Below are positions 1 to 62,820 of a DNA stretch of 64,000 bases, one piece after another; positions within the stretch are counted from its first letter, which is position 1; each line of letters starts with the position of its first letter. Made by a program: the position numbers and the translations under genes. Below the pieces are notes generated by a model that saw only the letters and a program-made list of their open reading frames with translations, made no database searches and was not told where the DNA came from. The stretch covers positions 124,001-188,000 of the forward strand of contig KZ538006.1 in the NCBI GenBank assembly GCA_000934665.2. Reading direction: 5' to 3'. This stretch comes from Catajapyx aquilonaris (taxonomy: Eukaryota).

Positions 1-263
1 TGTTATAGACGAATCGCCACTTTTGCATAAAGTTTTCTGCCTGCCGGTTGCAAATAATGCACAATACTGGATACTGATTTATGACAATATCCACAAAAAT
101 TCAAAATCAGCCTCATGTGCAAAACTTGCGACTAGTGTGAGGGTTGACCTCCTCAGGTCATCCCTTTGACCCCGAAAGGTCACTCAGGGTCGTTTATATC
201 CGGAGTCTACTGTACATGTATAATTCATTTTTATGTTCTACTTAATTCGGTGCAATACTTTAC

Positions 264-774
264 CTCTGACTGCGGCCATAACCTTATCCAAATTCCGAAT
301 GGTAATGGGCACAAGACTTGAGTTGAGGTAGTAGTGACCTTTCCTGTCGGGGTCAGCCACCACCAGGAAAATGCGCGTGTCCCGATTGCGAACCCGTCCC
401 AGACAGAACTTTGGGTTACCCACGCCTCGGACAGTCACCCGTTGACCCTCTGTCAATCCGTCACTAGAATGGCGACGACCTTTGAGGACTCGCTTGACCT
501 GCACAACCACCGCTGGAGGGTCATCAGGTCTGGACAGCACGTAGTGGTCCTCTAGTACCTCGTTGGTCAGCAGGGAAGACACTATTTTCTCCACTTTAGC
601 CGTGAATATGTGCGTCGCCCTTTGTTCCTTCTCCTTCATGGTGCCCTCTAGACAAGGGTGGTCACGCACTGAGCACACGCACGTGCGAAACATGACCAGG
701 AACACTAAGACTGTTAAGGCCAGCATTGCACAGCACAAATCTCGCACCCACTCGGAACCACTAAGAAGCAGCAT
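264..774 (-). CDS. AGRN: NtA cassette A: signal peptide + N-terminal agrin (NtA) domain, candidate alternative first coding exon of an agrin-like gene
   Basis: Hydrophobic N-terminus, then CLEGTMKEKEQRATHIFTAKVEKI...VQVKRVLKG...VRGVGNPKFC..RVRNRDTRIFLV...YLNSSLVPITIRNLDKV, matching vertebrate NtA motifs (REEEANVVLTGTVEEI, VWRYLKG, GFGDPLIC, GDTRIFFV, LNSSLMRITLRNLEEV). Ends GTC AGA G|GTAAAG (phase-1 donor, GT at 263-262). Start could also be the later Met (MLALTV). Gene symbol inferred from the domain only. Confidence 0.85.
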
Positions 775-1941
775 CTAGCTTCCTAAGTTTTTAACCTAGC
801 TGGCACAAGAGGCAAAAACCACGCAAATGAGTAAAAAATCCTGCAAAAACGTTCCTTCTGGAGGAAAAAAACAACCAGTGGGTTCTGAGGGAGGAAACAG
901 GAGACATCACTTTTGAGGATCGGAGGTATTAACGGCATCTCGTATTTTTAATACGTTGGCTTCCAGAAAAACCAGCAGGGTTAAAAAATCTGACAAACAC
1001 ATATAGAAATTTTTGGTCCTCTGTTTGCCTCTACCAGGAAAGGGTTGGGGGCGATGTGATCAAGCAGTTTTTTGGTGTATTCTTTTTCTGGATATATCAA
1101 GTCGCTAAATATGACTGGCATTTGGTGGAAAAAATTTAGAGAGGGAGATGCGACGACAATACGCGTGGCCTGTGGGGGTTATGGTTTTTTCATCCTGATT
1201 ATATTTGCAGAGACATGCCAAGCAGTTGTTTCAGAATAACTCACTATTCCCGTGTAAAATCCTGAAACTAAAATGATATAAGAAGACTTTTATGGTCGAT
1301 TGTGGAAAAAAAATGCATGTGTGAATACAAGGCAAAATTTAGGTCACAGTTAGAAACCAGTAGCAACATTGAAACGCCTAGAAAGTTAATACCCAACACT
1401 TTAGTCCCAAAATTTCTAACAGTACTCCCCCGTTATTATCCGAGAGGCTGAGGCACTACTGTGCAACATCCTGGGTAATTAGCGGTCAGTCAGTGGCGTT
1501 AAACAATCCGGTAAACAAAACCTGGAAACTAATTGCTGGCGGTTTTCTTCCCCCCTCCAATCATTTTGTTGTGCAATGGCCGAACGCAGAAGAGGTATTT
1601 TTCCCACGGAAAAGGGCTAGTGTGACACGCGGCAACCTCAGCATTGTGTCAGTTCCTCCGCCCGTGAAAATGTTAATTACTACCTTACGTTGACTTGATT
1701 AACCCGACCCCTTTGGCTTCCATCAGAGGGTCCACCTCTTTTTGCGCCCACTTTTGGCCAACAAGAGGCATTCACATGTCGCCTACGAGAGGGCGCGGTT
1801 GCCATGCCAAATGACGGGTAAATCTCGGGAATTTAACTAACGCCCATACAATCATGATGTATGAAACTGCATAAAAGGAAAGACAGCATGTGACACGGTT
1901 GTCCTTAGAATCAAAGTGAGACATTGCTGGAATGAACGCAC

Positions 1942-2488
1942 CTTTTGCTGCTGCGTTTGTCTTTCCCAAGATGGTGACTGACAACCGCAGCGGAGGCAGC
2001 AAGGCTTCGGACACTTTCCGGTCCAAGAAGAACAACCGGACATCTCCGACCCTCAGGTTTGTGGCCAACTCGCATACCAATGGGTCATCCAGAAGTATTG
2101 GGACACGGATGGCCATCATGGTTCCCTCCATTTCCAACCCGCCGCCTTTGTAAACCGATTTTATCTGAACCCACGTGTTGAAGTAAGCGACAGACAGGTC
2201 GAAGGACTTTCTGGCCCTCCTACGTTTAACCTTCCGTAACGTCCTGCTGAGTATGTGCTGGCTGACATTGCGTTCGTCTACCATCGTATAAAAGTACTGC
2301 GACTGCACTTTGGAGGGCACTAACTTCTTCACTTTTGCTGTGAATGCCATGTCCGACAGTCTGGTTATGGCTTCCAAGGGCAGAGGTCGACATCGAGAAG
2401 ATCTGGGACGACGACTGTCGCACACCCACCATAGCGTGGCGATGAAGATAACAAATAGCAGCAGCGTTTGGCACCTTTTATGCGCCAT
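1942..2488 (-). CDS. AGRN: NtA cassette B: signal peptide + divergent NtA domain with a basic insertion
   Basis: Signal-like MAHKRCQTLLLFVIFIATLWWVCDS; CRPLPLEAITRLSDMAFTAKVKKL, VQIKSVYKG, DDPLVC, VGDVRLFFL motifs; ends GCA AAA G|GTGCGT (phase-1 donor, GT at 1941-1940), the same position as in cassettes A and C. Confidence 0.75.
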
Positions 2489-2825
2489 TGTCTCAGTCGC
2501 GGTGGTCCATAAAATCCTGTTTTGTGAGGCCCACCGCTTATATCCCCCAAAATGTCACTTTGCCAAGAAAATGGTCGGGTTCACTAACTACATGCAGTTG
2601 AATAAGCACAAATGCTGGATCAACACTAGATGTCATCCCGATGTGACACTTCACACGACGCGATTACTAATGTCACACCGCACTGTGTACCCCAGAGAGG
2701 AGGACCTGCAACACACGTCCACATCACATGTCAACACCGAATGCACTCGTCCCACACACTCACACACTACTACGAGACGAGCCAGAGCCCCTAAGGCCTT
2801 TTTAGCAGTAGCCGATGAAAGACTG

Positions 2826-2859
2826 CAACCGTGGTGTGAATTTGTCCGCACGCAACTGA
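2826..2859 (-). promoter_or_regulatory. Inr + DPE core promoter candidate for NtA cassette B
   Basis: Minus-strand TCAGTT (2859-2854, A+1 = 2857) with GGTTG at exactly +28..+32 (2830-2826), fitting the arthropod Inr (TCAGTY) and DPE (RGWYV) spacing; about 370 nt upstream of the ATG at 2488. Confidence 0.5.
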
Positions 2860-5800
2860 CCCTTACTCGTAAAAGGTGATGGCAATGAGGTGGGGCACCT
2901 GCCACTGCTCCACTCCCCCCCTCCCCTCTCACTATTTTCACCGGTACCGTTTTTTATCCTTATCGAGGGTGAGGGGGGGTTCTGAGAGGTGGAGGGATGT
3001 CTTGCTTTTCCAGAGGGCGCCGCCTAACTTCAACGGTCCCCACAGGGAAAAGGGTGGAGGGCATCGTAATGCCCACGCACTTATATAGGATCCTGCAGCC
3101 CCTCTTATTTCTCTGAATAAAACTGGTTCCAAGCAGTTATCCATATAGCTGTTATTATAACAAATTAAATAATCCAGCCACTTTGAATTTACCTAAAAAT
3201 AGCTCAATTGCTTATTAGGAACCATCAGTTTATAATTAAACACATCATTTTAAAATGTAAGCAATTAAAGCAACTGATATTTGCTCCACACTTTTTTTTT
3301 CTTCAAATAAGCGGCTTATGGGTGATTACCAATGGTTTCAATTGGAACATGCTGTAATTCCAGCAATCGAACCGTGTGCTGATCCGGATTTTTGCATAAT
3401 CGTGACCTAGGCTTTCAAGCCGGCTCAAATTTAATAACATGCAAGGCGAGCATGATTTGTTAAACTGTTGGGGATAAAGGTATGCATTAAGGTCGCCAGA
3501 TTGCCCCCATTTTTTATTTTTTATTTTTCGGAGGGACGGACATTGCCATAAGCGGGGCATCATATATGAGATGCCATCCATCACTCGGCGGCAAGTCTGA
3601 CCAAATTGCTCAATTTCAGTGCTCAACTCGTTTTTTTTATTATTATATTTAAAAAAACATGACAACAATATGGGCTCGATTCAAGGGCCCGGTCATTTAG
3701 AGAAAACAATTTTGAGAATCTGCTCTCGGGGGCTTCCTAATAATGGACGCGGCTTTTCAACACTTGACTCCTTCCTAACCCCGTAGGCCACTCGGCTGTC
3801 CATGAACAGAATACACAAGCAGAGGACTTCACCTTAATTATTTACTCGAAAATTAAATTGGCCTATTTCGGAGTTGAACACGCAATTAAAAATTTTTTTT
3901 AATGTTCATGCATCCCTAAAACTCATTTCCACTTGGTGGAAAAGTGAAGATGAGAAAGGTGGATGGAGTAAAAAATATATACCGTATATATATATATATA
4001 TAAGGATATGTGTGTTGGAGGGGTGTTTTTTATGTGGGAAAATATAAGTCGAGGTTGTGTTTCTTTATGGGGGGAAGATGAAAAATGGTCAGTGTGCTTT
4101 CGGAGGTGACGAGAGGTCATGGGGAATGGAGGACCACCCGACGCATTAAGAGGATTGGAAGTGCGTAAAATGAATTCGGTACGGAGTTATTGAGGATTAG
4201 ACCTATAGCAAAACATTGCAGACTATTTGGCAAGTGTTGAGAGTTCTAGAATTTTGATGGGCCTTCGTAAATGACGTCCATTATACAGAACTTTAAGATA
4301 GCTAATAATATTAGGTTAAAAGCTGCTTTTTTATTGCGTGTGACGTATCGAGTGTTGACTATTAGTGACAAGTATATCGCTCAAAGTGATTCACTGCCTG
4401 TGCTATCACATATTTTAACAGCGTTGAGTGCTACACGATGTACCATGGCCTGTTGCCAAAAAAGTGTAGCATAACTTTCGGATTAGCTAATATATGAAGT
4501 AGCCATCAGTGAATCCGCTGCAAAAAAAAACGCTGCATTAAATTATCTTAATATAAAGTAAACGTAAAGCTGCATCAGTCGAATAACCACATAATATCCG
4601 CATTGCTAAAGACGATCCAATTCTTTAGATTCTTACGACGAATGAAATATGTGCAAGTCATATCAAGGATGGATTCGTTTAATCATCAAGAGTAACAAGT
4701 TCACAACAAGGATGCCTGAAATTTCAGTGCGGACAGCCGCGTCTCGCCAACCATTTTATAATCTACACAAAGGCGGTAAAAAAAATTCATAATCTGTAAC
4801 ATACATCAAGGGAAATCCCGTGGGAGGACAAAAATGACCCCGAAGGAAACGGCTTCCCGAATGAATATTGGGTCGGCCCATGATGCCGAAGGAAGGCCCC
4901 GTCCGACTCATTTGCATAATGATGTTTGTTTCCAGATGCATTATCAACATCTACTCGTGTGGCGTTTCAATATCATGCGCGCTTAATTGCGGCCCACTCG
5001 ATTGCGGAACAGTCCCACGTCCCATTCCGCCATGTTCAAATGAGGTACGTGCCCTGAAAGACAGAGGGACTTGAGCTCTTTTTGCACTCTTTTCCCCCCC
5101 TCCCCTTGGAGGTTAATTAGAAATCGTGAGTCCACCACCTCACTACAAATTTGCGGTGCGGGTTACGGGCCTGGAGCAAAATTTTATTAGCGACAATAAG
5201 CAGTAATGACCGTGTCGCGGTAATAATCGGCGTGTAGTGTTAAATTTTTAAATATAGTTTTTTTGTGGCCGTAAAAAGAAGGAGCGACCTTTGCTGAATG
5301 GTCAACTGCATGTGAATCGAGCGGGACGAATTAATATGATATTCAGGGACTCACACAACGGTGCACAACGTGAGGTAGGAGGCGATATAGAGGTTAGCGC
5401 CATGCCTTTAAAAAAAATTACTGTAAAAATTAACGGTGGAAGGAATATTTTTGGAGTTTTTGAAACAGTACGGCATTGGCATATAATGTTTTGAGGATTA
5501 TTAAACGACAAAAAAATGCCATAAAATTGCAAATAAATTAAATAAAATCAGCACTGTAATAAGTAAAGTGGTTATCCAAATCATTACTAGAGATTTTTTA
5601 ACAAAACTAGGAGCTGCTAGAGTTTAAATATTGTACGTAGAAAGCATACACATAACCTGAATCCAAGGTTGTCAGAGTATATTGACACCACGGCCAACAC
5701 ACAGGTTAGTTATCAAGTATTATTTGTTTACGTGATATTGCCCGCATGTTGCACACACTGCTTAAATGATGAGCAAAACATCCTATCTCCTTATGACAGG

Positions 5801-6908
5801 TTGACATAAACATTTTTGCCGGCTGAGCTTGTATCGTGTTCACTTCGCTGATGAACTAAATAATAATAACAGCACGGCATCCATGACGATGTCCATCATA
5901 ACTATCCGATTAAAAGCAGCAGGAGAAAATCAGATTGCAATGAAGATTTAATATGTCATTGCATATTCATCGCTCATATTTTGGCATGTATCCAGTACTC
6001 TTGGTGTATCTCCGCCAACGTTTCATGTATTGCTGTACTGCCCTGAACTATTATACGTTCAACTCTGTCTCATGTTCGTGCAGAATGCTAATAACCTTAC
6101 AATGGCCTTCTAGCATCAATATTGGGAATAATAAATAATCGCACTTAAGGATTAACGATTACATCAAGCTAGCCATGCAATTTCACGGCCTAATTGAAAG
6201 CACCTCATTTCAACAACACACATAATGGAACCGCAGTTAAAAGGAAAGCAATACCTTAACTGCCTCATTCTACATGCACCGTAAATTGATGAGAGCAATT
6301 ACTCTAAATGCCTCCTTTTCAGGGTCACGCGACCCCTTTAATAACACGTGCACACCTATGAGCATGCATCAAGAGACCCGAAATGTGACAGTAGCATGCC
6401 ACCACGGCGGTGAAACAAGTCCAGCTTCACACCGCCATTTAAAAAACACATGCCCCTACCACTTTTCGAGAGGACCTCAAAAAACCAAATTTTTTTGGTC
6501 AGTTATTTTGGTCTTGCTTTGAACAGGTTACTACATGTGGAGAACCGGTACAAGAGACGGAAGGCGACACAAACACTCCAGACAAGTAGGCTAAGAATGT
6601 CAGTGGGCGTCAGAAGCAAGGACGTTGCCGTCAAACAAGGTCCTGGAACCGTGATGGCATGGTCAAAGTACACCCCATACTACATAGATTACATTTGAAC
6701 AAACACAACCGAGTGCGCAGCATAGTTCGCACATCTTGTACGGTTGGCATTATCAATGAAATCTGGTAAGGTCTCCGTACAGAGTGGGCGTACTGATAAA
6801 TAAGCGCTACACTTATTTCCAACGCTACGCTTGGGGGAACAAAACGGCCGACGTTTTCGACGTTGCCAAGGCTCTGAAATGAACATCAGAGTCTTATTTG
6901 TTTATTTA

Positions 6909-7030
6909 CTGATTAATTTATTTTAATTTTTAATGAATGTTCTGATTAATTTATTTTAATTATTGATGAATGTTCTGATTAATTTATTTTAATTATTAAT
7001 GAATGTTCTGATTAATTTATTTTAATTATT
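6909..7030. repeat. AT-rich 33-bp minisatellite, about 3.7 copies
   Basis: Unit AATGAATGTTCTGATTAATTTATTTTAATTATT at about 6932, 6965 and 6998, plus a partial copy from 6909. Confidence 0.85.
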
Positions 7031-9424
7031 TATTTATACGGTATTTTAATTATTAATTAATTCGCTGATTTATTTATATTTTAATTATTTCAACTACCGG
7101 TGTATATTTAGTATGATTTGGCTCCTGTGGAGTAAGTTTTAGTTTGGCAACGTTGCTGTCAGAACAATATTGAGCTGCGCGAGTGTGGGTGCGCACTGGG
7201 TTACGCGAGTAAAAATTTTCCAGTTAGCCTTAACTATTACCAAACAAATGAAACCAATATTTTGAACACCTTTCGTGACTGGCAACCGCCAGACTCTTAG
7301 TGGAATCTCCCAAATTTGTCAATGTCTCCCGATTAGAAAGCGCCATCAATATAAAGCATTGCCACCCCTCCAGTTATGTCAGAGATGACCAAATGATAAC
7401 TTGTTATTGCTCACGGTGGTGTCAATTGACATGCATAGTGTCGGGCGTACCAACTCCCCATTGGCAGCACATAAAAGCCGGCCGCTGTGCCTTTGATGGA
7501 AAGAAATCATGCACCCAGCAAGGCCTGTTTTCTGGGTGGAGTCACCCTTTTTTTTATATACTCGCATCATAACCAGTACCCTTTTTTTTACCAGTGGTCA
7601 TCACCGGTCTTTCAGTTTAGGCGGTGACCGCAAGTGACCCTTTGCAAGCTGCGTCTGCGAGCAATCCATCATTTCGAGGCTTTTGCATACCCCCAAATCC
7701 GGTGTATCTATTGCTGTGGAGGGTGTCAAGATAATTTTGTCACTTTCACCTTTCGAAACATTTTTTAAAAAAGCGGAGAGAGTGTGTCGGTTTAGGGCGG
7801 AGGTGACGATTCCACTTGTCACATGGGAGGTCCCCACATTTTGGTGATAGCGAAGAACCGCTTTCTTCTTTTTTTTATAGAAAAAGTGGGCGAGGATCCC
7901 AAACTTGACACCGAGTAAAAATTGCTATCTGATTTGATAAGGATGAAGAATTTGGCATCGTTTCCGGATACAAAGTTTACAGAAAGGTGCAACGAGGTCA
8001 CTCTGACATAACCCATCATCACTTAGCGCTAAATAGGCGGTCTATCATGGTAGATATAGCATTATAACTTATAAGGTAAAGATATCAGTCGTACCCTGAT
8101 AATGCGTTACATGCATTTAGAAGGTGTGGACAATGTTCTCTTCGCAAAATATAATTCACTCCCTACATGTCAGCACCAACTTCTGAAGATTAATGGCGTC
8201 CGCTTGAATCAAAGCAAAAATGCCGGAGGTTCGGAAAACGAGTGAAGCGATACTTAACTTTGATAAGATTTATATGTTGTTCACTCCACCCTTCCCCCTA
8301 ACCTTCCAAAATTGCATCCCAATGCAAAATGAAAGGAACCATGATGGCCTATCAGGACACCCCCCAAAAAAACGTGCCCACATTCGTCTTTTTTTCCTCA
8401 ATGTATGTGTTTTAATGCCTACACCTTATGTGCCTAATTAAGCATCCACCGTAGAGTCATGTTCAGGCTATTCATGCGCTACTACACTAGTCTTCACCCA
8501 TAAAAAGTGTGGGTTTGAAGTAAAACGCGTCCGGACAGGTGGTCATTTGATTGCTGCCTCATCAGCATCCAGGCCCGACTCCCCTAAGAGTTATTTACGG
8601 CCCCGTGATCACCTCTTCACGCCCAGGAAAACCACTTCTGAATGGCCCTCTTAGGCACAAATGAAGGCCCCCAAAAGAGCCACCCCCATCCGATAAATGT
8701 TGACTCCCCTATCTGCTCCCCTAGACCCCCCATCCAAAAAAGGGTCTGAATATATTGTTGGGACTCGACTATTAGGACATGGTGGCGCTGCAGGGGGGTT
8801 TGTTATAGGTCATGGGGGGGAGGGGGAGGGGGAGGTGAAATATTGGTGGTAAAAATCTTGGAAACGACGTGTTAAGTGGAGCGATGAACTGCCGGGTGCT
8901 CGACCCTGATGGCCATAAGCGCCATAAAACGACACCGACGGCTGCTACGCTTCCGTACAAACTGATCCGGATCATTTTAAGTGCTACTCTGGAAGTGTCA
9001 GATATGTGCCAATAAACCGACTAAATACGGAAAGGGAGGGAACGCAAAGGCATGAAACTCGTTGCCATGTTGATTACACGCGACATAATAACAAGTGTCA
9101 GCTAGAAATTGTAAAGATTATGAACAAAAACACGCAAATTCACATAGCGATAAACTATTTCTCCTCATAGGCTTAATCTCTCCGCCGGATGTTTGCCCGA
9201 CCTAATAGTGTCGGTATCTCTCGCACGACTTGATGGAGGCAGGAGAGTGCAGAGGGAGTGTGCGCCATCTATTTGTGAAGAATATTACTACGTGGAAAAT
9301 CGGCTGGTTATATTGTCACTGTGACACTGATTATTATAGGTTTCGCTCAATTTTGGCAACTGGTTCACCATAGTAAATAAATGAATAGAGGTATTTGGGG
9401 TTGGACGATCCAAAATTGACTTAC

Positions 9425-9650
9425 CTTTAACAGCGGCTACCAGCCTGTCCAGGGTGTCCAGTCGTACCCGAACCATACCAGAAGCAAGTTGGACTCTTGG
9501 CGGTTTGGCCTCCTCGCTGGACTCATCAACATTGCTCAGGAATATACGTGTGTCTTTCACTTCAGCTTCTCCACCACACACACTGGAGTTGCCAACACCT
9601 TCCACTTGCACATAGCCATCTTCTTCTGGCTCCAAGTCCGGATGATTGTT
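9425..9650 (-). CDS. AGRN: NtA cassette C, second coding exon (C-terminal half of NtA)
   Basis: Acceptor cattacag|AAC (9652-9651); NNHPDLEPEEDGYVQVEGVGNSSVCGGEAEVKDTRIFLS...LASGMVRVRLDTLDRLVAAVK; ends AAA G|GTAAGT (phase 1). 226 nt = 75 codons + 1. Confidence 0.85.
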
Positions 9651-10626
9651 CTGTAATGTGTATTTCATGAGCTCTCCTCAGTGATGAAGGTTGCTTAACA
9701 CTACCACTTCTGTGATCTCAGCAGCCGGAGTTATGTCACAAGGGGTGTCAGATATATCTGTCCTCGTGATATGCAGAAGAGCCATCATCTAGACAACTTC
9801 TGGTACAGGGCGGCTTAAAGGGGCTTTACCCTGGGGATTCATCAGTCATTCAAACCCCAGGAAGGCAATCACGTCACTTTCCTGTCCGGCTCCGCGTGTC
9901 TCCCATTTATCTACCTTTTTTTTGTCAACTTGAAGACAGGAAGGGGACGGGAAGTTTACTGTCTCTAATGCCGTTTATAGTAAGAATGAAGATGGTTTAA
10001 ATTCTGGAAGAAAAAAGTCAGACCCGCCTTCTTCAAATTCTGCAGTTGCAGAAGTTTCAATCATGCCTACTACTGTATATAGGCACACCATTATAGGGTC
10101 TCGCGAAGGGTCTCGTATAATCTGAGATTACAGTCGAGATCTCTTAACGCAAGGGTAAGTACAATATTATTACATCATATTTATGTAATTCAGGAAAACT
10201 GAAATTGTGGTTGAAACATAACCTGCACTTCTCAGAAGTTAGTATTTTCAAGTCCCTTCAGCAAATATTGCATTCTTCAAGTAACATCAAGGGAAGGTAT
10301 TTTTTTAAAGCCATGGGAAACCACGTTAAAAAACGAGATTTTACAAACATAATGTTTTCATACACTTCGCCTCACACCGCGTAGAGAGTAAACATGATTA
10401 TTGTTGCATAAGCTCACGTTCAAATGCAAAAAAAAGTGCTATTGACAGGGGTACTAATTACGACACATACAAAACGACTAATTATTCCCAAAATCTCCAC
10501 TCATTGGCTATGCAGTGGCATCATTATCTGAACTAATTAGTACAAGAGTGCCCTCGCAATTTGTCACTATAGTCAGCTTAATACAATATAGTATATTTGT
10601 CACTATAGTTACTTTTAAAAACCCAC

Positions 10627-10818
10627 CTTGTAGACCCTCTTGACCTGAACCATTGCAGATCGATCTCTCATTGATCTAAAGGTCCCGGTGAAGACAACCT
10701 GTGCCTTTTCTTCCCGGTCAGCCAAAGCGTGGTCGTCATTGCGACACAACCTGGCGTTGAATCCGGACGACACCGCCAGGATCGCAGCCAGCAACAGGAT
10801 CTTCGCCCCACCAATCAT
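10627..10818 (-). CDS. AGRN: NtA cassette C, first coding exon (signal peptide + N-terminal half of NtA)
   Basis: MIGGAKILLLAAILAVSSG signal peptide; CRNDDHALADREEKAQVVFTGT...VQVKRVYK; donor AAG|GTGGGT, phase 0, joins in frame to 9650. A possible 5'UTR acceptor (ttcctttcag) lies at 11079-11078. Confidence 0.85.
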
Positions 10819-15670: not shown

Positions 15671-17480
15671 TTATATCAAGGGGCTACTCTGCTCCTTATC
15701 CTTCTTGTTGTCCTGCCAGTTGTACTTGAAGAAAAATGCCACTCCTCCGGCAACAATGGGCAATCCCAGCAAGGAGCAAATGAGCTCTCCCGTAATGGCA
15801 GGCGCGAAACTGAGCGCCAGGGGATCAGCTGCACTGACTCCTGTGCCCACCAGAGACCACCACACACCGCTCAACGGCAATGCGAGGGAAGCCACTGACA
15901 CAGCAAAGACACTGGACTCTGCCAGCACTGTCAGGTGGGCCAATGAAAAAGTGAAGGAGATGTAGGATATGACAAAGGCCCATGCGTAAGTGGAAAGGCG
16001 CCCACACGACTCGGAGCTTGACACGAGGCAGGAGAGGCCACCACTTGTGTAGTTTTCAAACTCGGACACAATAGACGCCTGCAGAAAAGGAATACAGAAA
16101 TTATATCAGACAGAGATCATTCAACTGAAACTGATTTTCCTGATTATTTTGGTGCTTTTCATCAACAAATTTTGGAATTAACTGACAACTTTTGGAGGAC
16201 CAAGGATGTCTAATATTGCCTTGTTGATTATGGAAAAACAAACAATATTTCTCACCTACTAGGCATGCAAATCTTACCTTTCCAAGACCGCCCACAAAGT
16301 CGGTCCATATAAACGCAAGTATAGTAATCAGAGCGAGGCAATGGGTCCAGCATATGTAGCTGAGTGTGCGTGAGAGCGGTGGCTGGTGGGCAAATGGATT
16401 AAGAGTAGGCTCCCTGACCAGACTCTGCCTGTCACTCGTGGCCACCTCTGGTTCGTCTAGCGGCCCTGAAATTGTTGGAACGGAGCTCTTGGCCCGAGGC
16501 CTCCTTATTAATACCACTGCCCTCTCTAGTGCAGAAAGGCCATCAGCAAAAAGCCACAGAGAGGCTGCATAGCCCAATGTCCACAGGAGGTGCACCTCCC
16601 AGCTCCATGGGCCATGGAAGGCCTCATGGGATTTCCGTACAGCCCCGTGGCAGCGGAACTCATCACAAAGCTGATAGTCCACTGCGATGAACAGGCCCGT
16701 CACTATTGCCACCAGTGAAAAGACACGTCGCAGGCGGAATGCTGAAAAAATATTAGGCATTTTAACACATTCAGGACAAACACCTTGTAGCATCTACATC
16801 AGCATTTCTCAACCTTTTTACCCTTCCAGAACCCTTAAAATAATAGTGACCTCTCAGGGAACCCCTATATAATAATAATTATATCAAGTAATGACTTGTA
16901 TGATTCATCGTTATTGTTTGCGGAACCTCTGTTGAGAAACCCTGGTCTACATGATCGGCGTGATCGCACCTTTCCTTCTCCTAAAAAAGTGTATGATGGC
17001 TGCCGAGACCACCACAAGTCCAAGCATGGGGTCCTGCAGGTGGCAAACAACCCTCATCCGATCCCAGGCGTAAAACACGACCATGCCAGCCACTCCATAC
17101 CCAACCCCAACCAGTGCCATTCGTGGGAGTCCCAGCAGGCCAGGCCCAACCGGGAAGCTGTGGTCCGTCGCTTTCCTCGCCACAGCCGCAGCAAAGAACA
17201 CCAGTCCGGACACCAGCGAGGTGAAAAGCGCGCCGGTGTACGCATCGCCCTGGACATTCAGGCTCTGAATGAACAACGGGAGGAGGATGACAACGGCCAG
17301 GGATGACGCCGTGACGCAAGCACATGTCGACGTGAAATGTGAACGTGAGCTGCGGAATGCCCAACGAGGAACCGGTCGTGCTGATGAAGCTGCCGGAGCA
17401 GCAGGTGGCGGGTCAGACAAGCGGCGAGGCGGTGTCGCCGTGTCCTCATCCGGCTGGATCAGAACATCCTGATCATCCAT
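15671..17480 (-). CDS. Multi-pass membrane protein, CRT-like / drug-metabolite transporter (DMT) superfamily, about 460 aa, 3 coding exons
   Basis: Exons 17480-16970, 16741-16278, 16078-15671 with GT-AG introns and compatible phases (1, 0); total 1383 nt. About 10 hydrophobic segments; motifs RVVCHLQDPM, WTDFVGGLGK, GLSC...SC, ALPLSGVWWSL resemble CRT-like proteins. Gene structure is well supported; the family call is less certain. Probable 5'UTR exon ending at donor 17587. Confidence 0.75.
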
Positions 17481-19689
17481 GGCTGCAATCTGCAATGGAC
17501 CACTAATTAACAAACCTGTCTAATTTGCAATGATTAAATTGAGCCAGTGTACCTGTACTGTAAGTACAATCTGTAATAACTATCACCTTGCCGAAATGGC
17601 TCAAGGCCACTGTGTTGCAGAATCAATCTTCTTTCTCTCACAGCATCAGGGACGCCATCTTGTTTCCCTTTACTGCAAATCTGCGAATCGCGCGCAAAAA
17701 ATTTGCGGGAGGGCCTGCAAACGCGCAGCTGCTATGAAATCCAGCAGTAAGCTAATACAAAGCAGTTCTGCCGCCAACCGCGTGATGTCGCTAGTAGTCA
17801 CGCACACTAGCGGCGCCTAGCGTCTCATTAAGGAACCAGTGCGAAACGACCGTATAGGCACACAATACCGTATTGTTCAAACCGCCTTTGTTTTTCTCAT
17901 ATTCATTGCAAATACATTGCGGATAATAATCGATGGCTGCGCGACTAGGCTACGGTGGGGGGAGGGGGGGGATAAAAGGAGCAGGGCCGAGTGCAAATTC
18001 TTATCCGGGCGGATGCTGAGCGTGAGTGGGTCTGACTGGGAAATTAATTAATGTCCTCTCCCTTGACTTGCCCTCCCCCCAAGCAGCTCCTCCCCCGTTA
18101 CAGCTCCTACCCCTTTGTGGAAATCCATTGGGAGGCTATCGAGCGGCAACCTTCCCCACCCCTCACCAAAACGCCTTGCTGAATGTGGCACATGACCAAC
18201 TCTCTCCAAAGCCATGACTTAGGCCCATTAAGTCTATTGCGCCCGAAATATTCAGCATTACATGCGATGGAGGGAAAAAATCTGCGACGTCGTACCCATA
18301 AATCGTACACTAACGAGAATAGCACCATCCTATACTAAAGAGACCAATTATGCAGATACGGCTGGTGATTAACATGGCAGGTCAGGTCAACCTCGAATAA
18401 CCAGTTTTTGTGTATATGTGTGCTATGGTCTCACACTGAAAAAAAGCAAGTTTGCGTTTCTCACGGAAAAAGATTTCAACAGCTGACAAGGAGCCAGGTA
18501 AAACTCGACCATATGACTGCAGCAATGTTGGTCCAGAAAAATAGGATCGTATATCAAACGTTCAAATTAGCGTGACGTCCTTGTATATCTCCAGGAAACA
18601 GCTCATATAGCGTATCGATACTTGAATTCAGAAGAAAATAACAAAAAGGATGATCGCAATCCATGCAACTGTATATCGGGCGCAGCGAGTACTGTACAGT
18701 GAGCGCAACGAGTAGCTTACTAGGAAGAAGGTGTCTGCGCCATTCCGCAGCTGTTAACTATTTTTTTCTCTTGGTTCGTTTGGGTACCAAGAGCTAAATC
18801 AATTTTAGCATCCCTTCGAGTCAGCCATGGCTCGTAAAGTGGCGGTGATGAAGTGTGGATGTGGCAACGCTGTGACTGTGAAGCTCCGGCCATTCTTCCC
18901 CGTCTAATTTACGGGGATAAGGCCTGGCGAGGAAGAGGGTCATCGGGAATCTCATTTGCCAGGCCAGGAAGGATGACATACGTATTGAGAGAACCCCGTT
19001 GCCTTGACCATCAAGAGACAATGCCTGCTCGGAATGGGAATTGTTGCTTCAGGACCCCCATTGTTGGGCGCCAATGGGGTTTGGAGGGAAGATGGCGCAA
19101 TTCGGGTGCCATTTTGGTGCCTCCCCATTTACGCCTCTTCAATATCATTCCGGAGGAGGGGGGACTGGGGTCGTAAATAGTATCTAGAAAATCAACTGAC
19201 CACGTGACCGTGCATAAATTAGGCAACGCCGCCTTTAAATTTTTGGAAACATGGCCGGGTCCCTTTTGAGCTTATCACGATGCCGATCTGCTTTTTCCTG
19301 CCCAAAAACAAGAGGGGGGCGGAGAAAGTTTGCAATTAGACACGACGACAAGCCGGTTCTTATAAACATTTCTCTATATCCTGTAGTGTGTGAAACACTA
19401 TCCGATATCCGACTGGCCACGCCCTCATTAAAATTCGCCGATTTTTCTTTTAAGTCACGTTACTTTGATTTCACCTCATTAGTACCTGTGGGTCGCCACC
19501 TGAATATAAATTACTAGCAGACAACACGTTGACATAATTTGATGACAACACTGTCAGGTCCGCACTTGGACGTAATAGCCTACAATATGCCACAACCAGA
19601 TGGCACATAGTCACACCAGAGTCACACCGAGTCAATTCTATATGTGACTAGCAGGGTTCTTCACATTGTGAAACACCATTTTTAAAAAC

Positions 19690-22338: not shown

Positions 22339-22411
22339 TGCCTCCTGTGAGAATCGAACTCACGACCCCTGGTTTACGAGACCAGTGCTCTAACCTCTGA
22401 GCTAAGGAGGC
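22339..22411 (-). tRNA. tRNA-Thr (anticodon CGT)
   Basis: GCCTCCTTAGCTCAGAGGTTAGAGCACTGGTCTCGTAAACCAGGGGTCGTGAGTTCGATTCTCACAGGAGGCA: intact acceptor, D, anticodon (CTGGT-CTCGTAA-ACCAG) and T arms; oligo-T Pol III terminator about 10 nt downstream. Confidence 0.96.
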
Positions 22412-31000: not shown

Positions 31001-32395
31001 AATATTTTCCTGCTGCATATTGAATCATTTTATTGTCGATTTCATTGCGTCCTACATATTGCAGTCACATTTTAAAAATGGACAAGATCGTGTACTGTTA
31101 TAGGAGAAAAGCCTTTTTTTTGAGTGGACATTGCTCATAATGATCCTTACGCTGACTGACGTCACCATATAATTCTGGGAAAGACATTTACGGTTAAAAT
31201 ATCTGACATTCCATTATAAACATACCGACACCGTAATTGAAGAAGCAGTAGTACCCTTATATTTATTGCGCTTAAATGATTTTTTCTAAATTATATACCC
31301 ATGATCTTCATAAAAATTAGCAACCATATTATTATACGAAATCGCATCTTTTTGTCTTTAATCTATGAATTATTCCGAAATATACCGGTACGTATTGTTG
31401 AGTATTACAAATTTGATCCAGCAGCACCTTGTTTTCCAGATAGTTCACATACAGTACTTGCAACGTTCCCGTGCACATAATCATAATCAGACAAAGCATA
31501 ATAATTCCGATTCCCGCTTGCATTATTTCTCAACGTGCATTGTGCAATTATTACACAATTCGCAAGCTGAACATGCACTACGTATACAGTATTTGCGAGA
31601 GGGAAATAGATTACACTTGACGCGCATCCGTGAGAAACTGGATATTCCATCTGCGTAACCATTTATTAATGATAGGCTTTTCTTCTTCCTTGAAAACCGC
31701 GCAGATTCATTCCATATCCGCGTGTGAAACTGGCTCTGTAACAGTACATACCGCCCTGTATACAGTGGGGTACTACATCGGGAGTGAAAAAGAGGACAAT
31801 TACAAATGCACGTATTATCCTTGACTTTGACCCATTTTTTGAGGAGGGCCTCGGTCATTGATGTGGGCGCATTCCTATGAGAACCAGTCCTGATGTGTGA
31901 CGCAATAATGCATCCTGACAGTCCCCGAGATGAAACCAGGGGGGTTGGCATAAAGGATTTTTTTTGGAGGGGGGCCTTTGAGTCACACGGGGTTGGGGGG
32001 GAAGGAGAGGCGTGTTTATTTCCAGGCGTGCAGTTGGGGGACTGGTTGGCTGGGGGAGGCAGCAAGGCCGAGGCATGGTTGGCTCGTTTGGACCAGAAGC
32101 GTGCAGAGAGGAACCCAGTTCGGTCGGGTCCGCTCTGACACCCGGTAGATAGATAGATAGAGAGATAGACACCCGGTGATTGGTGGTGTCCCGGATGGGA
32201 GTGCGCTGGGATGCGGTTCGGACAGAGTGGACATGTGCGTTGGACATGCTTTTTTCGCGGTCGTGTTGACTGATGGGTGTCATCCGGTCGGTGTCAGTGA
32301 ACCCCTGAGAAGTGATATAGCACCGTTGCCCCATATTATAATGCCGCCCGGAGTAGTGTGCGCGCCTGCATCAGGTTGGTGATGACCACGGCAGA

Positions 32396-35122
32396 ATGGC
32401 CAGTGGCGTCCACCACTGTAAGGATTGCGGGTTGTACTTCGAGAGCGGCAAGTCACTGGAGGTGCATCTCAACTACCACAAGGAGAACCTGCTGAGTCGG
32501 TGGGCGACGCAGGCCACGGAGGGGACAGCGGACAGTAAGAACGGAGGTGGCGGAGGATCCGGTGCCAATCGGAATTCCGCCACCCCCAGTGCCACCATAG
32601 GCAACCACAGGGACTACCACGCCGAGAACGGGACCGTGGATGCAGGCGGAGGAGGGTACCAACAGCAACAGCAGAATAGCAACCAGTTCCAGCAGCACGA
32701 GCCTCCGTCCAGCACAGTCAGTCCAGGGTTGAGTGTACCGGCGTATGTGCACCATTACGGCAGTCCGCCGCCTCCGTCGTCGCAACCTGCTGGCTTCCCT
32801 ACCTACCAACCTATGACCACATCTGACCCGAAAGCTGGTTTAATCTTCCACCGACCTACCCCGCATCTACCTGCCACAGTCACCCAACCCACGGCCTTGC
32901 ACACTTTCGGTGTCATCCTCCCACACGACAATCCCATATGCTACCCCCAAACCACAGCTGCACCGGTGTTCAACCAGGAGCTGTACGACCCTTTCAAGCA
33001 GCACCAGCGGCGACAGTACCATTTCCACCCGTACAATGGCACCCTGCCCCATTCTCCTAACCAGCCGTACCCGCAACCCAAAGGAATCCAGGTCGATTCT
33101 CCCCCACCCCAGCCACCGGAGCAGGTATTCGATCCATCCAGAGAGCCGTACCATCAAACCCTGATAGTGCCCAAGAACATTCAGTCGGATTTCCCTTTCT
33201 ACGACAACAAGCCGACTGGAAATGGGAACGCGGAGCACCCCAACGGCGGCGGAGACCTGGAGGCCTCAGAAATCCTGGACTTGGACTCGCAGAAGGTGGT
33301 GTACCAGTCCACCGCAGGAGGCATCATTATCGGCACCGGAGGACCTGGAAGCCCGCAGATCAACCTCCATACTCCGTACCCGACACCGCCGCCTTCAGGG
33401 TGGGGTCACCCGATCTGGCAGCCCAAGACCGGAAACGGCAGCCTTGAAGAAGGCAATAAGCCGTCCAGCATGCCTCCGGAGGTCAATGTCGGCTACCAGC
33501 AGAGGCTGCCCTCGTCGTCCACCGTCACTCCTCCTCCGGCCACCTACCCCGTCCACAACATGCACCACCACCAGCAGCAGCAACAACAACAACAGCCACC
33601 CCCACCCCAGCCAGCAGCACCAGCACCGCAGCAGCAGCAACCTCAAGTTCCTCCACCAGCTAGTCCCAGCAACCCGGGATGGTCCGGCAAAGGTCATCCT
33701 GACCCAAAGCGGCCCAAGACCTACTTATGCGAGATCTGCAACAAGTGGTTCACCAGCAGCGGCCATTTGAAGCGCCATTACAACACCACCTTGCACAAAA
33801 ATGCGATGAGGGCGAGAGGGCTCCCAGATCCTGGGGAGAACTCCCCTTCTCCGGGGCATCACCCACCACCCACCCCCTCGACCCGGCAACAGCCCCAGCC
33901 CCCTCCTCTACCTCCTCCTCCTCCTCAGCAGCACCAGGGGGAAAACTTGAGCCCCCCGGGGTATATGGCTGCAACCTCGGGGGGTCCCCCCTCTACCACT
34001 GATTTTGCAGCCATCTCCAGTCCTTCCATCAGCGGAGTTGAGGATTCTTCTTCCTCTGGAAGCGCCTTGACCAGCGGTGACGACTCTGGGTCCTCCGCGG
34101 GTGGGAGACCCGCTAATCACCACCAGCAGATGAGAAACGGATCGGAGGCCAACGGAGTACATCAAATGTACCACAGAGGTACTGACTCGCCTGTTTCTTC
34201 TTACCACCCCAATGAGCCCATGCGCGTGTTGATTCCTCACATGGGCAATTACCACCACCCGGAGCAGCTCAACCTTACATCCCCTGATCCGGCCTCCTAC
34301 CCTCATTATGCCACCAACAGTGTTCCCATCGATAATAATAAACCTTGCAACAATGCCAACCGACTCCCATCCTTCCATCCATATCAAATCGACGCCGAAA
34401 ATATGAACGACCCCAATCATCACAATGGCGGTTCTGATTTCTCCATGGCCAGACCGTATATGAACCACCATCACCAGATGGAGTTGACCAACAACAATGG
34501 GCTCGGACCGACGGATGAGAACAACCCGTACATGCTGCCGATGCAGGACGGACAGGACAAGAACCAGCTGTCTCCCAACGCGGTCTTCAGCGGCGACAGC
34601 AGTCCATCAGACGAGCCCGACACCACCCACGAGCCCGACCCTCCCAAAGGCAAATTCAAGAAGTACACCAACGGTCACTACAACAACAACAACAACATCA
34701 AGAAGAACAACAACAACAACAATGGTAGGGGCCATCTAAAGTGCAAGGAGTGCGGTATAGTGTTCAAGAAGGCCAGTGTTCTCGTCCAGCACAACAAGCA
34801 CGTGCATGGAGGTACCGGTCTGTACCTGTGCGAGATGTGCAACGTCCAGTTCGACGACCAGCAGCAGTACGAGGCTCACCTGAAGACCAGCCACGAGGGT
34901 CAGCGAATCTACCCGTGCACCCTGTGCCACAAGCATTTCAACCACCGCACAGACCTGAAGCGACACCTGTGCACCCACACTGGCCAACGTCCCTTCGAGT
35001 GTGTCACCTGCAAGAAGCGCTTCATCCGCAAGGACCACATGCGCAAGCACTTTGAGAAACACCTGGAAGCCGACGGGAGCGCCAAGGCAGAGACCTCTTC
35101 TGCTGACGGGTTTGAAAACTGA
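32396..35122 (+). CDS. zld: Zelda/vielfaltig-type C2H2 zinc-finger transcription factor, 908 aa, single coding exon
   Basis: N-terminal finger CKDCGLYFESGKSLEVHLNYHKENLL, acidic patch EILDLDS, central JAZ-like finger CNKWFTSSGHLKRHYNTTLHKNA, four C-terminal fingers including FNHRTDLKRHLCTHTGQRPF and FIRKDHMRKH; Q/P/N low-complexity linkers. This is the Zelda architecture and signature sequence. Confidence 0.9.
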   Translation: MASGVHHCKDCGLYFESGKSLEVHLNYHKENLLSRWATQATEGTADSKNGGGGGSGANRNSATPSATIGNHRDYHAENGTVDAGGGGYQQQQQNSNQFQQHEPPSSTVSPGLSVPAYVHHYGSPPPPSSQPAGFPTYQPMTTSDPKAGLIFHRPTPHLPATVTQPTALHTFGVILPHDNPICYPQTTAAPVFNQELYDPFKQHQRRQYHFHPYNGTLPHSPNQPYPQPKGIQVDSPPPQPPEQVFDPSREPYHQTLIVPKNIQSDFPFYDNKPTGNGNAEHPNGGGDLEASEILDLDSQKVVYQSTAGGIIIGTGGPGSPQINLHTPYPTPPPSGWGHPIWQPKTGNGSLEEGNKPSSMPPEVNVGYQQRLPSSSTVTPPPATYPVHNMHHHQQQQQQQQPPPPQPAAPAPQQQQPQVPPPASPSNPGWSGKGHPDPKRPKTYLCEICNKWFTSSGHLKRHYNTTLHKNAMRARGLPDPGENSPSPGHHPPPTPSTRQQPQPPPLPPPPPQQHQGENLSPPGYMAATSGGPPSTTDFAAISSPSISGVEDSSSSGSALTSGDDSGSSAGGRPANHHQQMRNGSEANGVHQMYHRGTDSPVSSYHPNEPMRVLIPHMGNYHHPEQLNLTSPDPASYPHYATNSVPIDNNKPCNNANRLPSFHPYQIDAENMNDPNHHNGGSDFSMARPYMNHHHQMELTNNNGLGPTDENNPYMLPMQDGQDKNQLSPNAVFSGDSSPSDEPDTTHEPDPPKGKFKKYTNGHYNNNNNIKKNNNNNNGRGHLKCKECGIVFKKASVLVQHNKHVHGGTGLYLCEMCNVQFDDQQQYEAHLKTSHEGQRIYPCTLCHKHFNHRTDLKRHLCTHTGQRPFECVTCKKRFIRKDHMRKHFEKHLEADGSAKAETSSADGFEN

Positions 35123-62401: not shown

Positions 62402-62820
62402 GACTGCATCGAATTGAAAACCCAAAAAGGTGCAAGTGAATGTTCTGTTCTCTCGCACCAGCGGTTCATAATAGTTGATGTGGTGTTGCTAAGAAACAGT
62501 GGGGTTTTTTTCACTAATAAATTATTGCCTTTTCATTGATAGCCTACATCTTTGGCCTACAATCATGATGAAGGCAAGGACGACAAACTCGCGCCCAAAT
62601 CCATCCGCGCCGCCATCTTTTCGATCCCCCCTCCCGCCCCCTCCAATGCCGCCAACCGAGAATTTTGGCGCCCTTTTCCCTTCTGTTGCGTCTTGCAGGG
62701 TTGCCAACCCACATCCGCTGCCCTCATATGCTCTGTGGTGGTGCCCGCCTGGCAATAAGCACCGTCCTCCGGTCCTTCCCGTCGTTTGTTGTCCGTCTCT
62801 TCGTAGCCTCACCGTCGACC
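62402..62820. promoter_or_regulatory. Bidirectional promoter / 5'UTR region between ZSWIM2 and FEN1
   Basis: Divergent ATGs only 420 bp apart; CpG-rich; YY1-type motif CCGCCATCTT near 62610-62620. Confidence 0.65.

What the first reader, a model, noticed from the sequence alone, without database searches (positions are those of the whole stretch)
264..10818. Clustered array of variable signal-peptide + NtA first-exon cassettes for an agrin-like gene (protocadherin/sDscam-style 5' diversity)
Seen: three tandem same-strand units, each with its own ATG, signal peptide and one complete NtA domain, and each ending in an equivalent peptide (AAVRG / AAAKG / AAVKG) at a phase-1 GT donor (263, 1941, 9424). 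The units are highly divergent yet have intact frames, cysteines and donors. I found no follistatin/Kazal, EGF or LamG exon between them. Known: NtA is the laminin-binding N-terminus of agrin; vertebrate agrin has one NtA isoform and one transmembrane N-terminus; variable 5' cassettes spliced to a constant region are known for vertebrate clustered protocadherins, UGT1A and chelicerate sDscam. Inference: alternative promoters select one of at least 3 NtA heads, spliced to shared agrin exons left of the window, giving isoforms with different matrix-binding specificity. I know of no description of this for agrin; more cassettes may lie beyond position 1.
Basis: partly seen in the sequence, partly recalled or inferred. 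Interest (0 to 1): 0.92.

Follow-up and report, generated by a model that had tools for sequence, protein, structure and literature searches.

The report
Three tandem agrin NtA head exons
Three very different copies of the exon that encodes the matrix-anchoring tip of agrin lie in a row, each able to start a protein and each ending at the same splice point, so one gene may make agrin with three different anchors, though the rest of the gene lies outside this window and could not be checked.

Summary
The minus strand of 262-10818 carries exactly three units. Each has an ATG, a hydrophobic leader and one NtA (agrin N-terminal, TIMP-like) domain: C 264-774, B 1942-2488, and A 10627-10818 plus 9425-9650, which is split by a 976-bp intron. 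All three end at a phase-1 G|GT donor. That position is the canonical end of the NtA exon in 103 of 150 relatives from other animals. C and A pass Pfam NtA. B fails Pfam but matches a custom NtA profile, a fold search and a language-model search.

No follistatin, EGF or LamG exon occurs anywhere in the 64 kb, and no other Pfam domain was found between the units. The heads are old paralogues (23-36% identity, no DNA repeat). They differ most in one loop: 9, 29 or 53 residues, with net charge +2, -4 or +10.

The central claim could not be tested. It says alternative heads are spliced to shared agrin exons beyond position 1. No genome is held, no RNA run was listed, and no close relative is in the protein collections. 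I rate it the best explanation at about 0.55. Six full-text searches found no description of multiple NtA heads.

The parts
10627..10818 (-). Unit A, exon 1: ATG (10818-10816), leader MIGGAKILLLAAILAV..., first conserved Cys and the first half of NtA. Ends at the phase-0 donor AAG|GTGGGT.
   Evidence: Translation; Pfam NtA 0.0084, profile positions 3-45; custom NtA profile 3.4e-8; donor.
9651..10626 (-). Intron inside unit A's NtA domain (976 bases, GT...ttacAG).
   Evidence: The exon 1 frame stops 3 codons after the donor. Exon 2 follows an AG in the same frame. The joined product aligns end to end with the NtA profile (85.9 bits).
9425..9650 (-). Unit A, exon 2: second half of NtA (second Cys, DTRIFL motif, C-terminal helix ...LVAAVKG). 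Phase-1 donor AAG|GTAAGT, GT at 9424-9423.
   Evidence: Pfam NtA 2.7e-6, 27.6 bits against cut-off 25.1; custom profile 2.5e-15; donor.
1942..2488 (-). Unit B, single exon: ATG (2488-2486), leader, and a divergent NtA with a 53-residue basic loop (net +10, contains KVKRRRARK). Lacks the LNSS motif. Ends ...NAAAKG at the phase-1 donor AAG|GTGCGT, GT at 1941-1940.
   Evidence: No Pfam hit. Custom NtA profile 4.8e-11 among 2661 ORF segments. AlphaFold2 model pLDDT 78; four of the five best Foldseek PDB matches are chicken NtA entries. ESM Atlas first hit is an NtA cluster, score 0.94. Both conserved Cys are invariant columns. Loop.
2537..2543 (-). TATA-like ATATAAG, about 50 bases upstream of unit B's ATG. 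Possible own promoter.
   Evidence: Read from the sequence. This is a consensus match only and was not tested.
264..774 (-). Unit C, single exon: ATG (774-772, with an in-frame TAG directly upstream), leader, and the most canonical NtA (LNSSL, RNL...AAVRG). Phase-1 donor GAG|GTAAAG, GT at 263-262.
   Evidence: Pfam NtA 2.5e-14, profile 1-115 of 115. Chicken NtA structures 1pxu/1jb3/1jc7/3i70 at about 4e-8 and human agrin 8s9p at 6.6e-8. Oyster agrin residues 40-160 by tblastn at 4e-13.
775..1941 (-). Spacer between B's donor and C's ATG (1167 bases). No recognisable exon. It holds three polypyrimidine-AG acceptor-like sites 65-115 bases upstream of C's ATG.
   Evidence: No Pfam hit among its ORF segments; no agrin tblastn hit; sequence.
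2489..9424 (-). Spacer between A's donor and B's ATG (6.9 kb). No recognisable exon. It holds an AT-rich 33-bp tandem repeat at 6909-7030.

Best explanation
The three units are alternative first coding exons ("heads") of one agrin-like gene on the minus strand. Transcription would start at or upstream of one head. That head's phase-1 donor would then be spliced past any downstream heads to a shared phase-1 acceptor lying beyond position 1. That acceptor would lead into the linker and follistatin/Kazal exons of agrin.

The result would be secreted agrin isoforms that share one body but carry different NtA anchors. C has a canonical, probably laminin-binding NtA with a 29-residue acidic loop. 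A has a minimal 9-residue loop. B has a 53-residue strongly basic loop and no LNSS motif, so it probably has a different matrix or glycosaminoglycan preference.

Shown here: three intact NtA heads; same strand; equivalent donors; no body exon between them; old divergence.
Inferred: the shared acceptor; the agrin body; one promoter per head; different binding.
For: 1. All three are NtA-type domains behind a start codon and a hydrophobic leader.

2. Each ends at a G|GT donor in phase 1 with purine at +3. The position is homologous to the NtA exon end elsewhere. In 103 of 150 relatives the same profile position is Gly. It is followed mostly by K (42), E (16) or R (13), which is the read-through of GGT-AAG, GGT-GAG and the like. 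In 16 more it is Ser followed by K or E.

3. Five relatives carry Cys-rich follistatin-type tails and look spliced: oyster P0042, Aplysia P0102, ostracod P0123, P0149 and vertebrate P0050. In all five the NtA continues into a linker plus a follistatin-type domain, which is agrin.

4. No agrin body exon or other Pfam domain lies between or around the heads. Full tandem agrin genes are therefore excluded. B's donor is only 1167 bases from C's ATG.

5. The heads are 23-36% identical with no DNA-level repeat, yet all frames, both Cys and the donors are intact. B's 260-codon open frame is exceeded in the window only by the 921-aa zinc-finger ORF. This argues for selection on each head, including its donor.

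6. In a tree of 120 NtA domains the heads are not each other's closest relatives. A and C fall in a 19-member clade with shrimp and ostracod sequences (support 0.96). B falls with a chelicerate/millipede group that also has a basic insert in the same loop (support 0.76).

7. A millipede assembly has two NtA ORFs that are 31% identical, on one contig, with locus tags two apart. The same pattern may therefore exist elsewhere.

8. Vertebrate agrin already uses alternative N-terminal exons from separate promoters (PMC2189804, passages).
Against: - The shared acceptor and the agrin body were not seen. The window ends 261 bases after C's donor.
- There is no transcript evidence of any kind.
- Same phase and same boundary are also what simple descent from one NtA exon would give.
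- There is no shared promoter motif, and only B has a TATA-like box. Acceptor-like sites lie upstream of C's ATG, so C may have a 5'UTR intron. The choice could then be made by splicing rather than by promoter.
- Three Crassostrea virginica agrin isoforms carry one identical NtA, as do the Magallana and Ostrea entries (7 of 7 hits). A 13.4-kb metagenome contig has a single NtA with no second head. Multiple heads are therefore not general.
- Among 82 relatives with tails of 15 aa or more, no pair had the same tail behind different heads.
- A shrimp RefSeq model (158 aa, 'agrin-like') joins NtA to a short non-agrin tail. Two unnamed ORFs (P0019, P0139) run from NtA into Ser/Thr-rich sequence. 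NtA without an agrin body is therefore at least predicted in databases.
- B's placement in the tree is a long branch with weak support.
Confidence: 0.55

Rival explanations
1. Three separate small genes. Each encodes a secreted NtA-only protein, or NtA plus a short tail. It would be made either by read-through of the donor or by splicing to a small private terminal exon. Such free laminin-binding or TIMP-like modules could compete with agrin.
For: Databases hold short NtA-only predictions: shrimp XP_037796393.1 at 158 aa with a short non-agrin tail, plus spider, mussel and millipede 'NtA domain-containing' or hypothetical proteins. The frames stay open past the donors for 7, 55 and 44 codons. 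An ATTAAA lies at 952 between B and C.
Against: Most short database entries look like ORFs called on unspliced DNA. Their tails begin with the read-through of a GT donor and stop soon after, with a median of 13 residues measured from the end of each hit's profile match. The three donors are kept at the ancestral boundary despite 64-77% protein divergence, which read-through genes would not need. The post-donor tails share nothing. There is no AATAAA or ATTAAA in the 261 bases after C.
Confidence: 0.15
2. One working head and two passengers. Only unit C, the most proximal and most canonical, is the agrin first exon. A and B would be old exon duplicates that are silent or rarely used.
For: C is by far the best NtA match. 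B fails Pfam and lacks the LNSS motif. Oysters manage with one NtA.
Against: A and B keep long open frames, start codons, leaders, both cysteines and consensus donors after very deep divergence. Unused exons that old should carry stops or frameshifts. A and B each have nearer relatives in other animals than each other.
Confidence: 0.12
3. Heads of different genes. The donors of A, B and C join different downstream bodies, interleaved or nested beyond position 1. Some of these may not be agrin, for example a mucin-like Ser/Thr-rich body.
For: Two unnamed relatives (P0019, P0139) continue from NtA into Ser/Thr-rich sequence with no Gly-donor signature. The tree suggests at least three old NtA lineages in arthropod-like sequences. 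These could belong to distinct genes.
Against: The heads are tightly clustered on one strand, with 1.2 and 6.9 kb spacers free of recognisable exons. All five relatives with follistatin-type tails continue into follistatin domains.
Confidence: 0.13

Closest known systems
Vertebrate agrin LN/SN (NtA versus transmembrane) alternative N-termini
   Same: It is the same protein family. Alternative 5' coding exons from separate promoters are spliced to common agrin exons. The N-terminus decides where agrin is anchored (PMC2189804, passages; PMC2874008 and PMC1939731 introductions).
   Different: Vertebrates have one NtA head and one non-homologous transmembrane head. Here all three heads are NtA paralogues, and no transmembrane-type head was seen. 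The splicing to common exons is shown in mouse and only inferred here.
Clustered variable-first-exon loci: vertebrate protocadherins, UGT1A, chelicerate sDscam
   Same: A tandem same-strand array of paralogous 5' exons. Each has its own start codon and leader and ends in a donor of one phase, with no constant exon in between (sDscam: PMC4835542, search listing and abstract only; UGT1/PCDH: PMC1885805, abstract only).
   Different: There are only three cassettes in view, against tens. The variable part is a matrix-binding NTR-type module, not a homophilic adhesion or enzyme domain. There is no conserved promoter element. The constant region and one-promoter-per-cassette use are unverified.
NtA / NTR / TIMP-type OB-fold modules (chicken agrin NtA 1jb3, 1pxu; PCOLCE NTR 1uap; TIMP-1)
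   Same: Sequence matches for C and A. The fold model for B matches. There are two conserved cysteines and a C-terminal helix.
   Different: B has a 53-residue basic, low-confidence loop and no LNSS motif. A has almost no loop.

Membership tests
Agrin NtA domain (Pfam PF03146) | Scores above the Pfam gathering cut-off (25.1 bits) | tested here: inconclusive
   Met by C (53.5 bits, full length) and by A exon 2 (27.6 bits). A exon 1 alone scored 16.4 bits. B was not met, with no hit. With a profile of 150 relatives all three match: C 129.5, A 85.9 and B 38.9 bits. B scored 4.8e-11 against 2661 window ORF segments.
Agrin NtA domain (Pfam PF03146) | Two conserved cysteines (start of domain; before the DTRIF motif) | tested here: met
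   C41/C124 of unit C are nearly invariant columns in 65 sequences. C33/C139 of unit B are the only invariant columns in 51 sequences. Unit A has C25/C89.
Agrin NtA domain (Pfam PF03146) | NTR/TIMP-like OB fold with a C-terminal helix | tested here: met
   Tested for unit B only. The AlphaFold2 model has pLDDT 78 and pTM 0.63, with strands plus a terminal helix at 171-182. Foldseek PDB ranks 1-5 are PCOLCE NTR and chicken NtA 1pxu, 1jb3, 1jc7 and 3i70 (E 8e-5 to 1e-3, TM about 0.62 on the target). Caveat: the model was built on an alignment of NtA sequences, so it leans towards that fold.
Agrin NtA domain (Pfam PF03146) | Sits at the N-terminus behind a secretion signal | tested here: inconclusive
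   Each unit has an ATG followed by a hydrophobic stretch (Kyte-Doolittle 12-mer means 2.7-3.0) before the first conserved Cys. No signal-peptide predictor was available. The 17-18-residue stretches of B and C could also be signal anchors.
Agrin (whole protein) | NtA followed by follistatin/Kazal, laminin-EGF, SEA/EGF and LamG domains | not testable with these tools
   None of these occurs in the 64 kb. The expected place is beyond position 1, and no genome is held.
Clustered variable-first-exon gene (Pcdh / UGT1A / sDscam type) | Tandem same-strand paralogous 5' exons, each with its own start codon | tested here: met
   Three units on the minus strand, with ATGs at 10818, 2488 and 774. An in-frame stop lies directly before C's ATG.
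Clustered variable-first-exon gene (Pcdh / UGT1A / sDscam type) | Every cassette ends in a 5' splice site of the same phase | tested here: met
   Phase-1 G|GT with purine at +3 in all three, at the homologous residue. This is sequence evidence only; use of the sites was not shown.
Clustered variable-first-exon gene (Pcdh / UGT1A / sDscam type) | No constant-region exon between cassettes | tested here: met
Clustered variable-first-exon gene (Pcdh / UGT1A / sDscam type) | Shared constant exons downstream, joined to each cassette in transcripts | not testable with these tools
   They would lie outside the window. No genome is held and no RNA run was listed.
Clustered variable-first-exon gene (Pcdh / UGT1A / sDscam type) | A promoter in front of each cassette | tested here: inconclusive
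   A TATA-like ATATAAG lies about 50 bases before B's ATG only. No k-mer of 8 or more is shared by all three 600-base upstream regions (0 seen, 0.03 expected). Acceptor-like sites lie before C's ATG.

The most novel reading that the evidence does not exclude
Agrin in this animal, probably an arthropod, and perhaps across arthropods, is a multi-head gene. Several ancient NtA paralogue exons are kept as alternative first exons of one agrin body: a minimal-loop type, an acidic-loop type and a basic-loop type shared with chelicerate and millipede sequences. Cells could then choose which matrix component their agrin is tethered to. This would be a protocadherin/sDscam-style 5' cassette system applied to an extracellular-matrix organiser, and it would be hundreds of millions of years old.
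Probability: 0.35. Interest if true: 0.8.

Novelty: new variant of a known kind. Interest (0 to 1): 0.6.

Why it matters
Agrin is among the most studied synaptic and basement-membrane organisers. Its NtA domain is described as a single laminin-binding anchor. The only known N-terminal choice is NtA versus a transmembrane segment in vertebrates.

A locus offering three deeply diverged NtA anchors would mean that matrix targeting of agrin is itself diversified in some invertebrates. The anchors differ in a surface loop ranging from 9 residues to a 53-residue polybasic stretch.

It would give natural variants for mapping what NtA binds besides laminin. It would also add an extracellular-matrix protein to the short list of genes with clustered variable coding first exons. 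If the heads prove to be free-standing NtA genes instead, that would also be new: a family of secreted TIMP-like modules.

Tried and rejected
- **Whole genome of the window:** none is held, so the DNA left of position 1 could not be read.
- **RNA evidence:** no RNA holder was listed for window 1-2600.
- **Full-length relatives:** The search for homologous proteins with 'longer' gave no hit at E<=0.001, both for unit C (611 candidates) and for a 65-sequence NtA alignment (7998 candidates). The tool itself calls this weak evidence.
- **Oyster agrin N-terminus as query:** 7 of 7 hits are oyster agrins sharing one NtA per species, so there was no alternative head there.
- **Metagenome contigs:** the first alignment was too diverse (error). 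A smaller one gave 2 loci, each with one NtA and no agrin body exon. This is uninformative on arrays.
- **Same-tail/different-head pairs among 82 relatives with tails:** none.
- **More cassettes:** none on either strand of the 64 kb.
- **Recent duplication or assembly artefact:** rejected. There is no DNA repeat between units and protein identity is 23-36%.
- **Full tandem agrin genes:** rejected.
- **Retrocopies:** rejected, because the units keep the 3' donor and A keeps an intron.
- **Shared promoter element:** none found.
- **Earlier notes of this scan:** none on this genome or on this sequence. The word search returned only unrelated bacterial TIMP-like notes.
- **Literature:** six full-text searches, plus passages of PMC2874008, PMC1939731, PMC12445529 and PMC2189804, gave no description of multiple NtA heads. 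The PDF supplements of PMC2874008 (invertebrate agrin gene models) were not seen and might bear on this.
Full report
**What is there**

The minus strand of window 262-10818 holds three units.

- **Unit A.** It starts at ATG 10818. Exon 1 (64 codons) ends at a phase-0 donor AAG|GTGGGT. A 976-base intron ends in ttacAG. Exon 2 (9650-9425) ends at AAG|GTAAGT.
- **Unit B.** One exon of 183 codons from ATG 2488, ending at AAG|GTGCGT after base 1942.
- **Unit C.** One exon of 171 codons from ATG 774, with a TAG directly upstream in frame, ending at GAG|GTAAAG after base 264.

In all three the final donor splits a codon after its first base (phase 1). It follows AAVKG, AAAKG and AAVRG respectively. 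The finding does not mention A's internal intron.

**Are they NtA domains, and beyond chance?**

- Pfam NtA (PF03146) matches C over the whole model (2.5e-14). It matches A's exon 2 above the cut-off (27.6 against 25.1 bits) and A's exon 1 below it (16.4 bits). It does not match B.
- C also matches the solved chicken NtA structures (about 4e-8) and human agrin (6.6e-8) directly.
- A library-wide HMMER search with C found 169 relatives at E<=0.001. Of the 150 listed, 149 are 96-314 aa and one is a 1490-aa oyster agrin.
- A profile of those 150 scores C 129.5, A 85.9 and B 38.9 bits.
- Against all 2661 six-frame ORF segments of the window, that profile finds exactly the four exons: 1.2e-39, 2.5e-15, 4.8e-11 and 3.4e-8. 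The next best is 0.16.
- By phmmer, C matches 150 of 150 relatives, A matches 143 of 150 and B only 11 of 150.

B was tested further, in three ways:

- Its two cysteines are the only invariant columns of a 51-sequence alignment.
- An AlphaFold2 model (pLDDT 78) gives an OB-type barrel with a terminal helix. Its five best Foldseek PDB matches are the PCOLCE NTR domain and four chicken NtA entries. The model was built on an NtA alignment, so it leans that way.
- The ESM Atlas feature search, which uses no alignment, puts an 'agrin-like' cluster (98% NtA) first at 0.94 with 184 shared features.

B is therefore a very divergent NtA/NTR module, not a Pfam-grade member.

**The exon boundary**

In the profile alignment, the position of the terminal Gly is Gly in 103 of the 150 relatives. 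It is followed by K in 42, E in 16 and R in 13. It is Ser, mostly followed by K or E, in 16 more.

That is the signature of ORFs called on unspliced DNA that read through G|GTAAG or G|GTGAG. From the end of each hit's profile match, the ORFs run on for a median of 13 residues before a stop.

Five relatives carry Cys-rich follistatin-type tails and look spliced: oyster, Aplysia, an ostracod, one unnamed and one vertebrate. All five continue into a linker and a follistatin-type domain.

The three units therefore end precisely at the conserved end of the agrin NtA exon, in the conserved phase.

**Surroundings**

- tblastn of the 1490-aa oyster agrin against the window hits only unit C. The other hits have E above 3.
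- Of 143 ORF segments of 40 aa or more in 1-10700 on both strands, only the two NtA segments hit Pfam at E<0.001.
- There is no further NtA anywhere in the 64 kb.
- Upstream of A, the next gene-like ORFs are a membrane protein at 15.7-17.5 kb on the same strand, with a weak MFS hit. Further right lie a tRNA-Thr, a 921-aa C2H2 zinc-finger ORF, a SWIM/RING gene and the first FEN1 exons.
- The array therefore starts with A. It can only continue to the left, beyond the window.
- The spacers are 6.9 kb (A to B) and 1.2 kb (B to C). Only 261 bases remain after C's donor.

**How old and how different**

- The NtA domains are 36% (A/C), 27% (B/C) and 23% (A/B) identical. No DNA repeat links them.
- In a FastTree of 120 NtA domains they are not each other's nearest relatives. 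A and C lie in a 19-member clade with shrimp and ostracod sequences (support 0.96). B is a long branch in a group with spider, mite and one millipede sequence (support 0.76).
- The tree rests on about 118 columns and is only indicative. It suggests an arthropod origin for the window.
- The loop between the FTGxV strand and the VxVKRV strand differs most. It is 9 residues (net +2) in A, 29 (net -4) in C and 53 (net +10, with KVKRRRARK) in B.
- B's tree neighbours also carry basic inserts in that loop.
- C keeps the LNSSL and RNL...AAV helix motifs of chicken NtA. A keeps the hydrophobic pattern but not NSS. B lacks the LNSS motif.
The search for it found nothing usable.

**Interpretation**

Full tandem agrin genes are excluded. 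So are recent duplication, assembly artefact and retrocopies.

What remains is a choice between four readings:

- (a) Alternative heads of one agrin gene.
- (b) Free-standing NtA genes.
- (c) One working head plus relics.
- (d) Heads of different bodies.

I favour (a) at about 0.55, for these reasons:

- All three donors are kept at the ancestral site despite deep divergence.
- All frames, leaders and cysteines are intact.
- B's 260-codon open frame is exceeded in the window only by the 921-aa zinc-finger ORF.
- B's donor lies only 1.2 kb before C's start.
- NtA is followed by the agrin body in all five relatives with follistatin-type tails.
- Vertebrate agrin already uses alternative N-terminal exons with separate promoters (PMC2189804, passages).

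A millipede assembly has two 31%-identical NtA ORFs on one contig with locus tags two apart. This hints that the arrangement is not unique. Their adjacency is inferred only from the tags.

**Against this reading**

- Nothing shows the shared acceptor or any transcript.
- Same phase is also expected from common descent.
- No common promoter motif exists and only B has a TATA-like box.
- Acceptor-like sites precede C's ATG.
- Oysters use one NtA for all isoforms found (7 of 7 hits).
- One 13.4-kb metagenome contig has a single NtA.
- No relatives share a tail behind different heads (0 pairs among 82 tails).
- Databases contain short NtA-only predictions and two NtA-to-Ser/Thr-rich ORFs.

**Novelty**

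Six full-text searches and passages of four agrin papers gave no description of several NtA heads. PDF supplements were not seen.

The architecture would be a known kind, a variable-first-exon cluster, applied in a new way to agrin. It remains unproven here because the decisive sequence and RNA data were out of reach.

Noticed in passing
window 32357-35122 (+): A single uninterrupted 921-codon ORF in a 60% G+C island. It encodes a Gln/Pro-rich protein with C2H2 zinc fingers at both ends (Pfam zf-C2H2, zf-C2H2_jaz). This is the longest ORF of the window.
   Followed up: partly
window 61338-62488 (-) and 62572-64000 (+): A SWIM plus RING-finger gene lies head to head with the first exons of a FEN1-type flap endonuclease (XPG_N, XPG_I). 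The two probably share a bidirectional promoter region near 62.5 kb.
   Followed up: partly
window 22339-22411 (-): A tRNA-Thr (CGT) gene. It is the only Rfam hit in the window.
   Followed up: yes
window 15674-17519 (-): Three long ORF segments of a multi-pass membrane protein, with a weak MFS_1 hit at 2.5e-4. This is the next gene upstream of the NtA array on the same strand.
   Followed up: partly
window 6909-7077: An AT-rich tandem repeat (33-bp unit, 3.7 copies, 96% matches) full of AATAAA/ATTAAA words, in the spacer between units A and B.
   Followed up: yes
window 840-890 (-): Three polypyrimidine-AG acceptor-like sites lie 65-115 bases upstream of unit C's ATG. Unit C may have a 5'UTR intron, or upstream donors could splice here. 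For the first site, read by eye, a phase-1 join runs into the TAG before C's ATG.
   Followed up: partly
proteins P0004 and P0024 (millipede assembly): Two NtA ORFs that are 31% identical, on one 15.9-Mb contig, with locus tags two apart. They fall in different clades of the NtA tree. This is a possible second example of tandem divergent NtA heads.
   Followed up: partly
proteins P0019 and P0139 (unnamed contigs of about 1.1-1.2 kb): NtA domains that continue, without the usual Gly-donor signature, into about 100 residues of Ser/Thr-rich sequence. These are possibly NtA in a non-agrin, mucin-like context.
   Followed up: no
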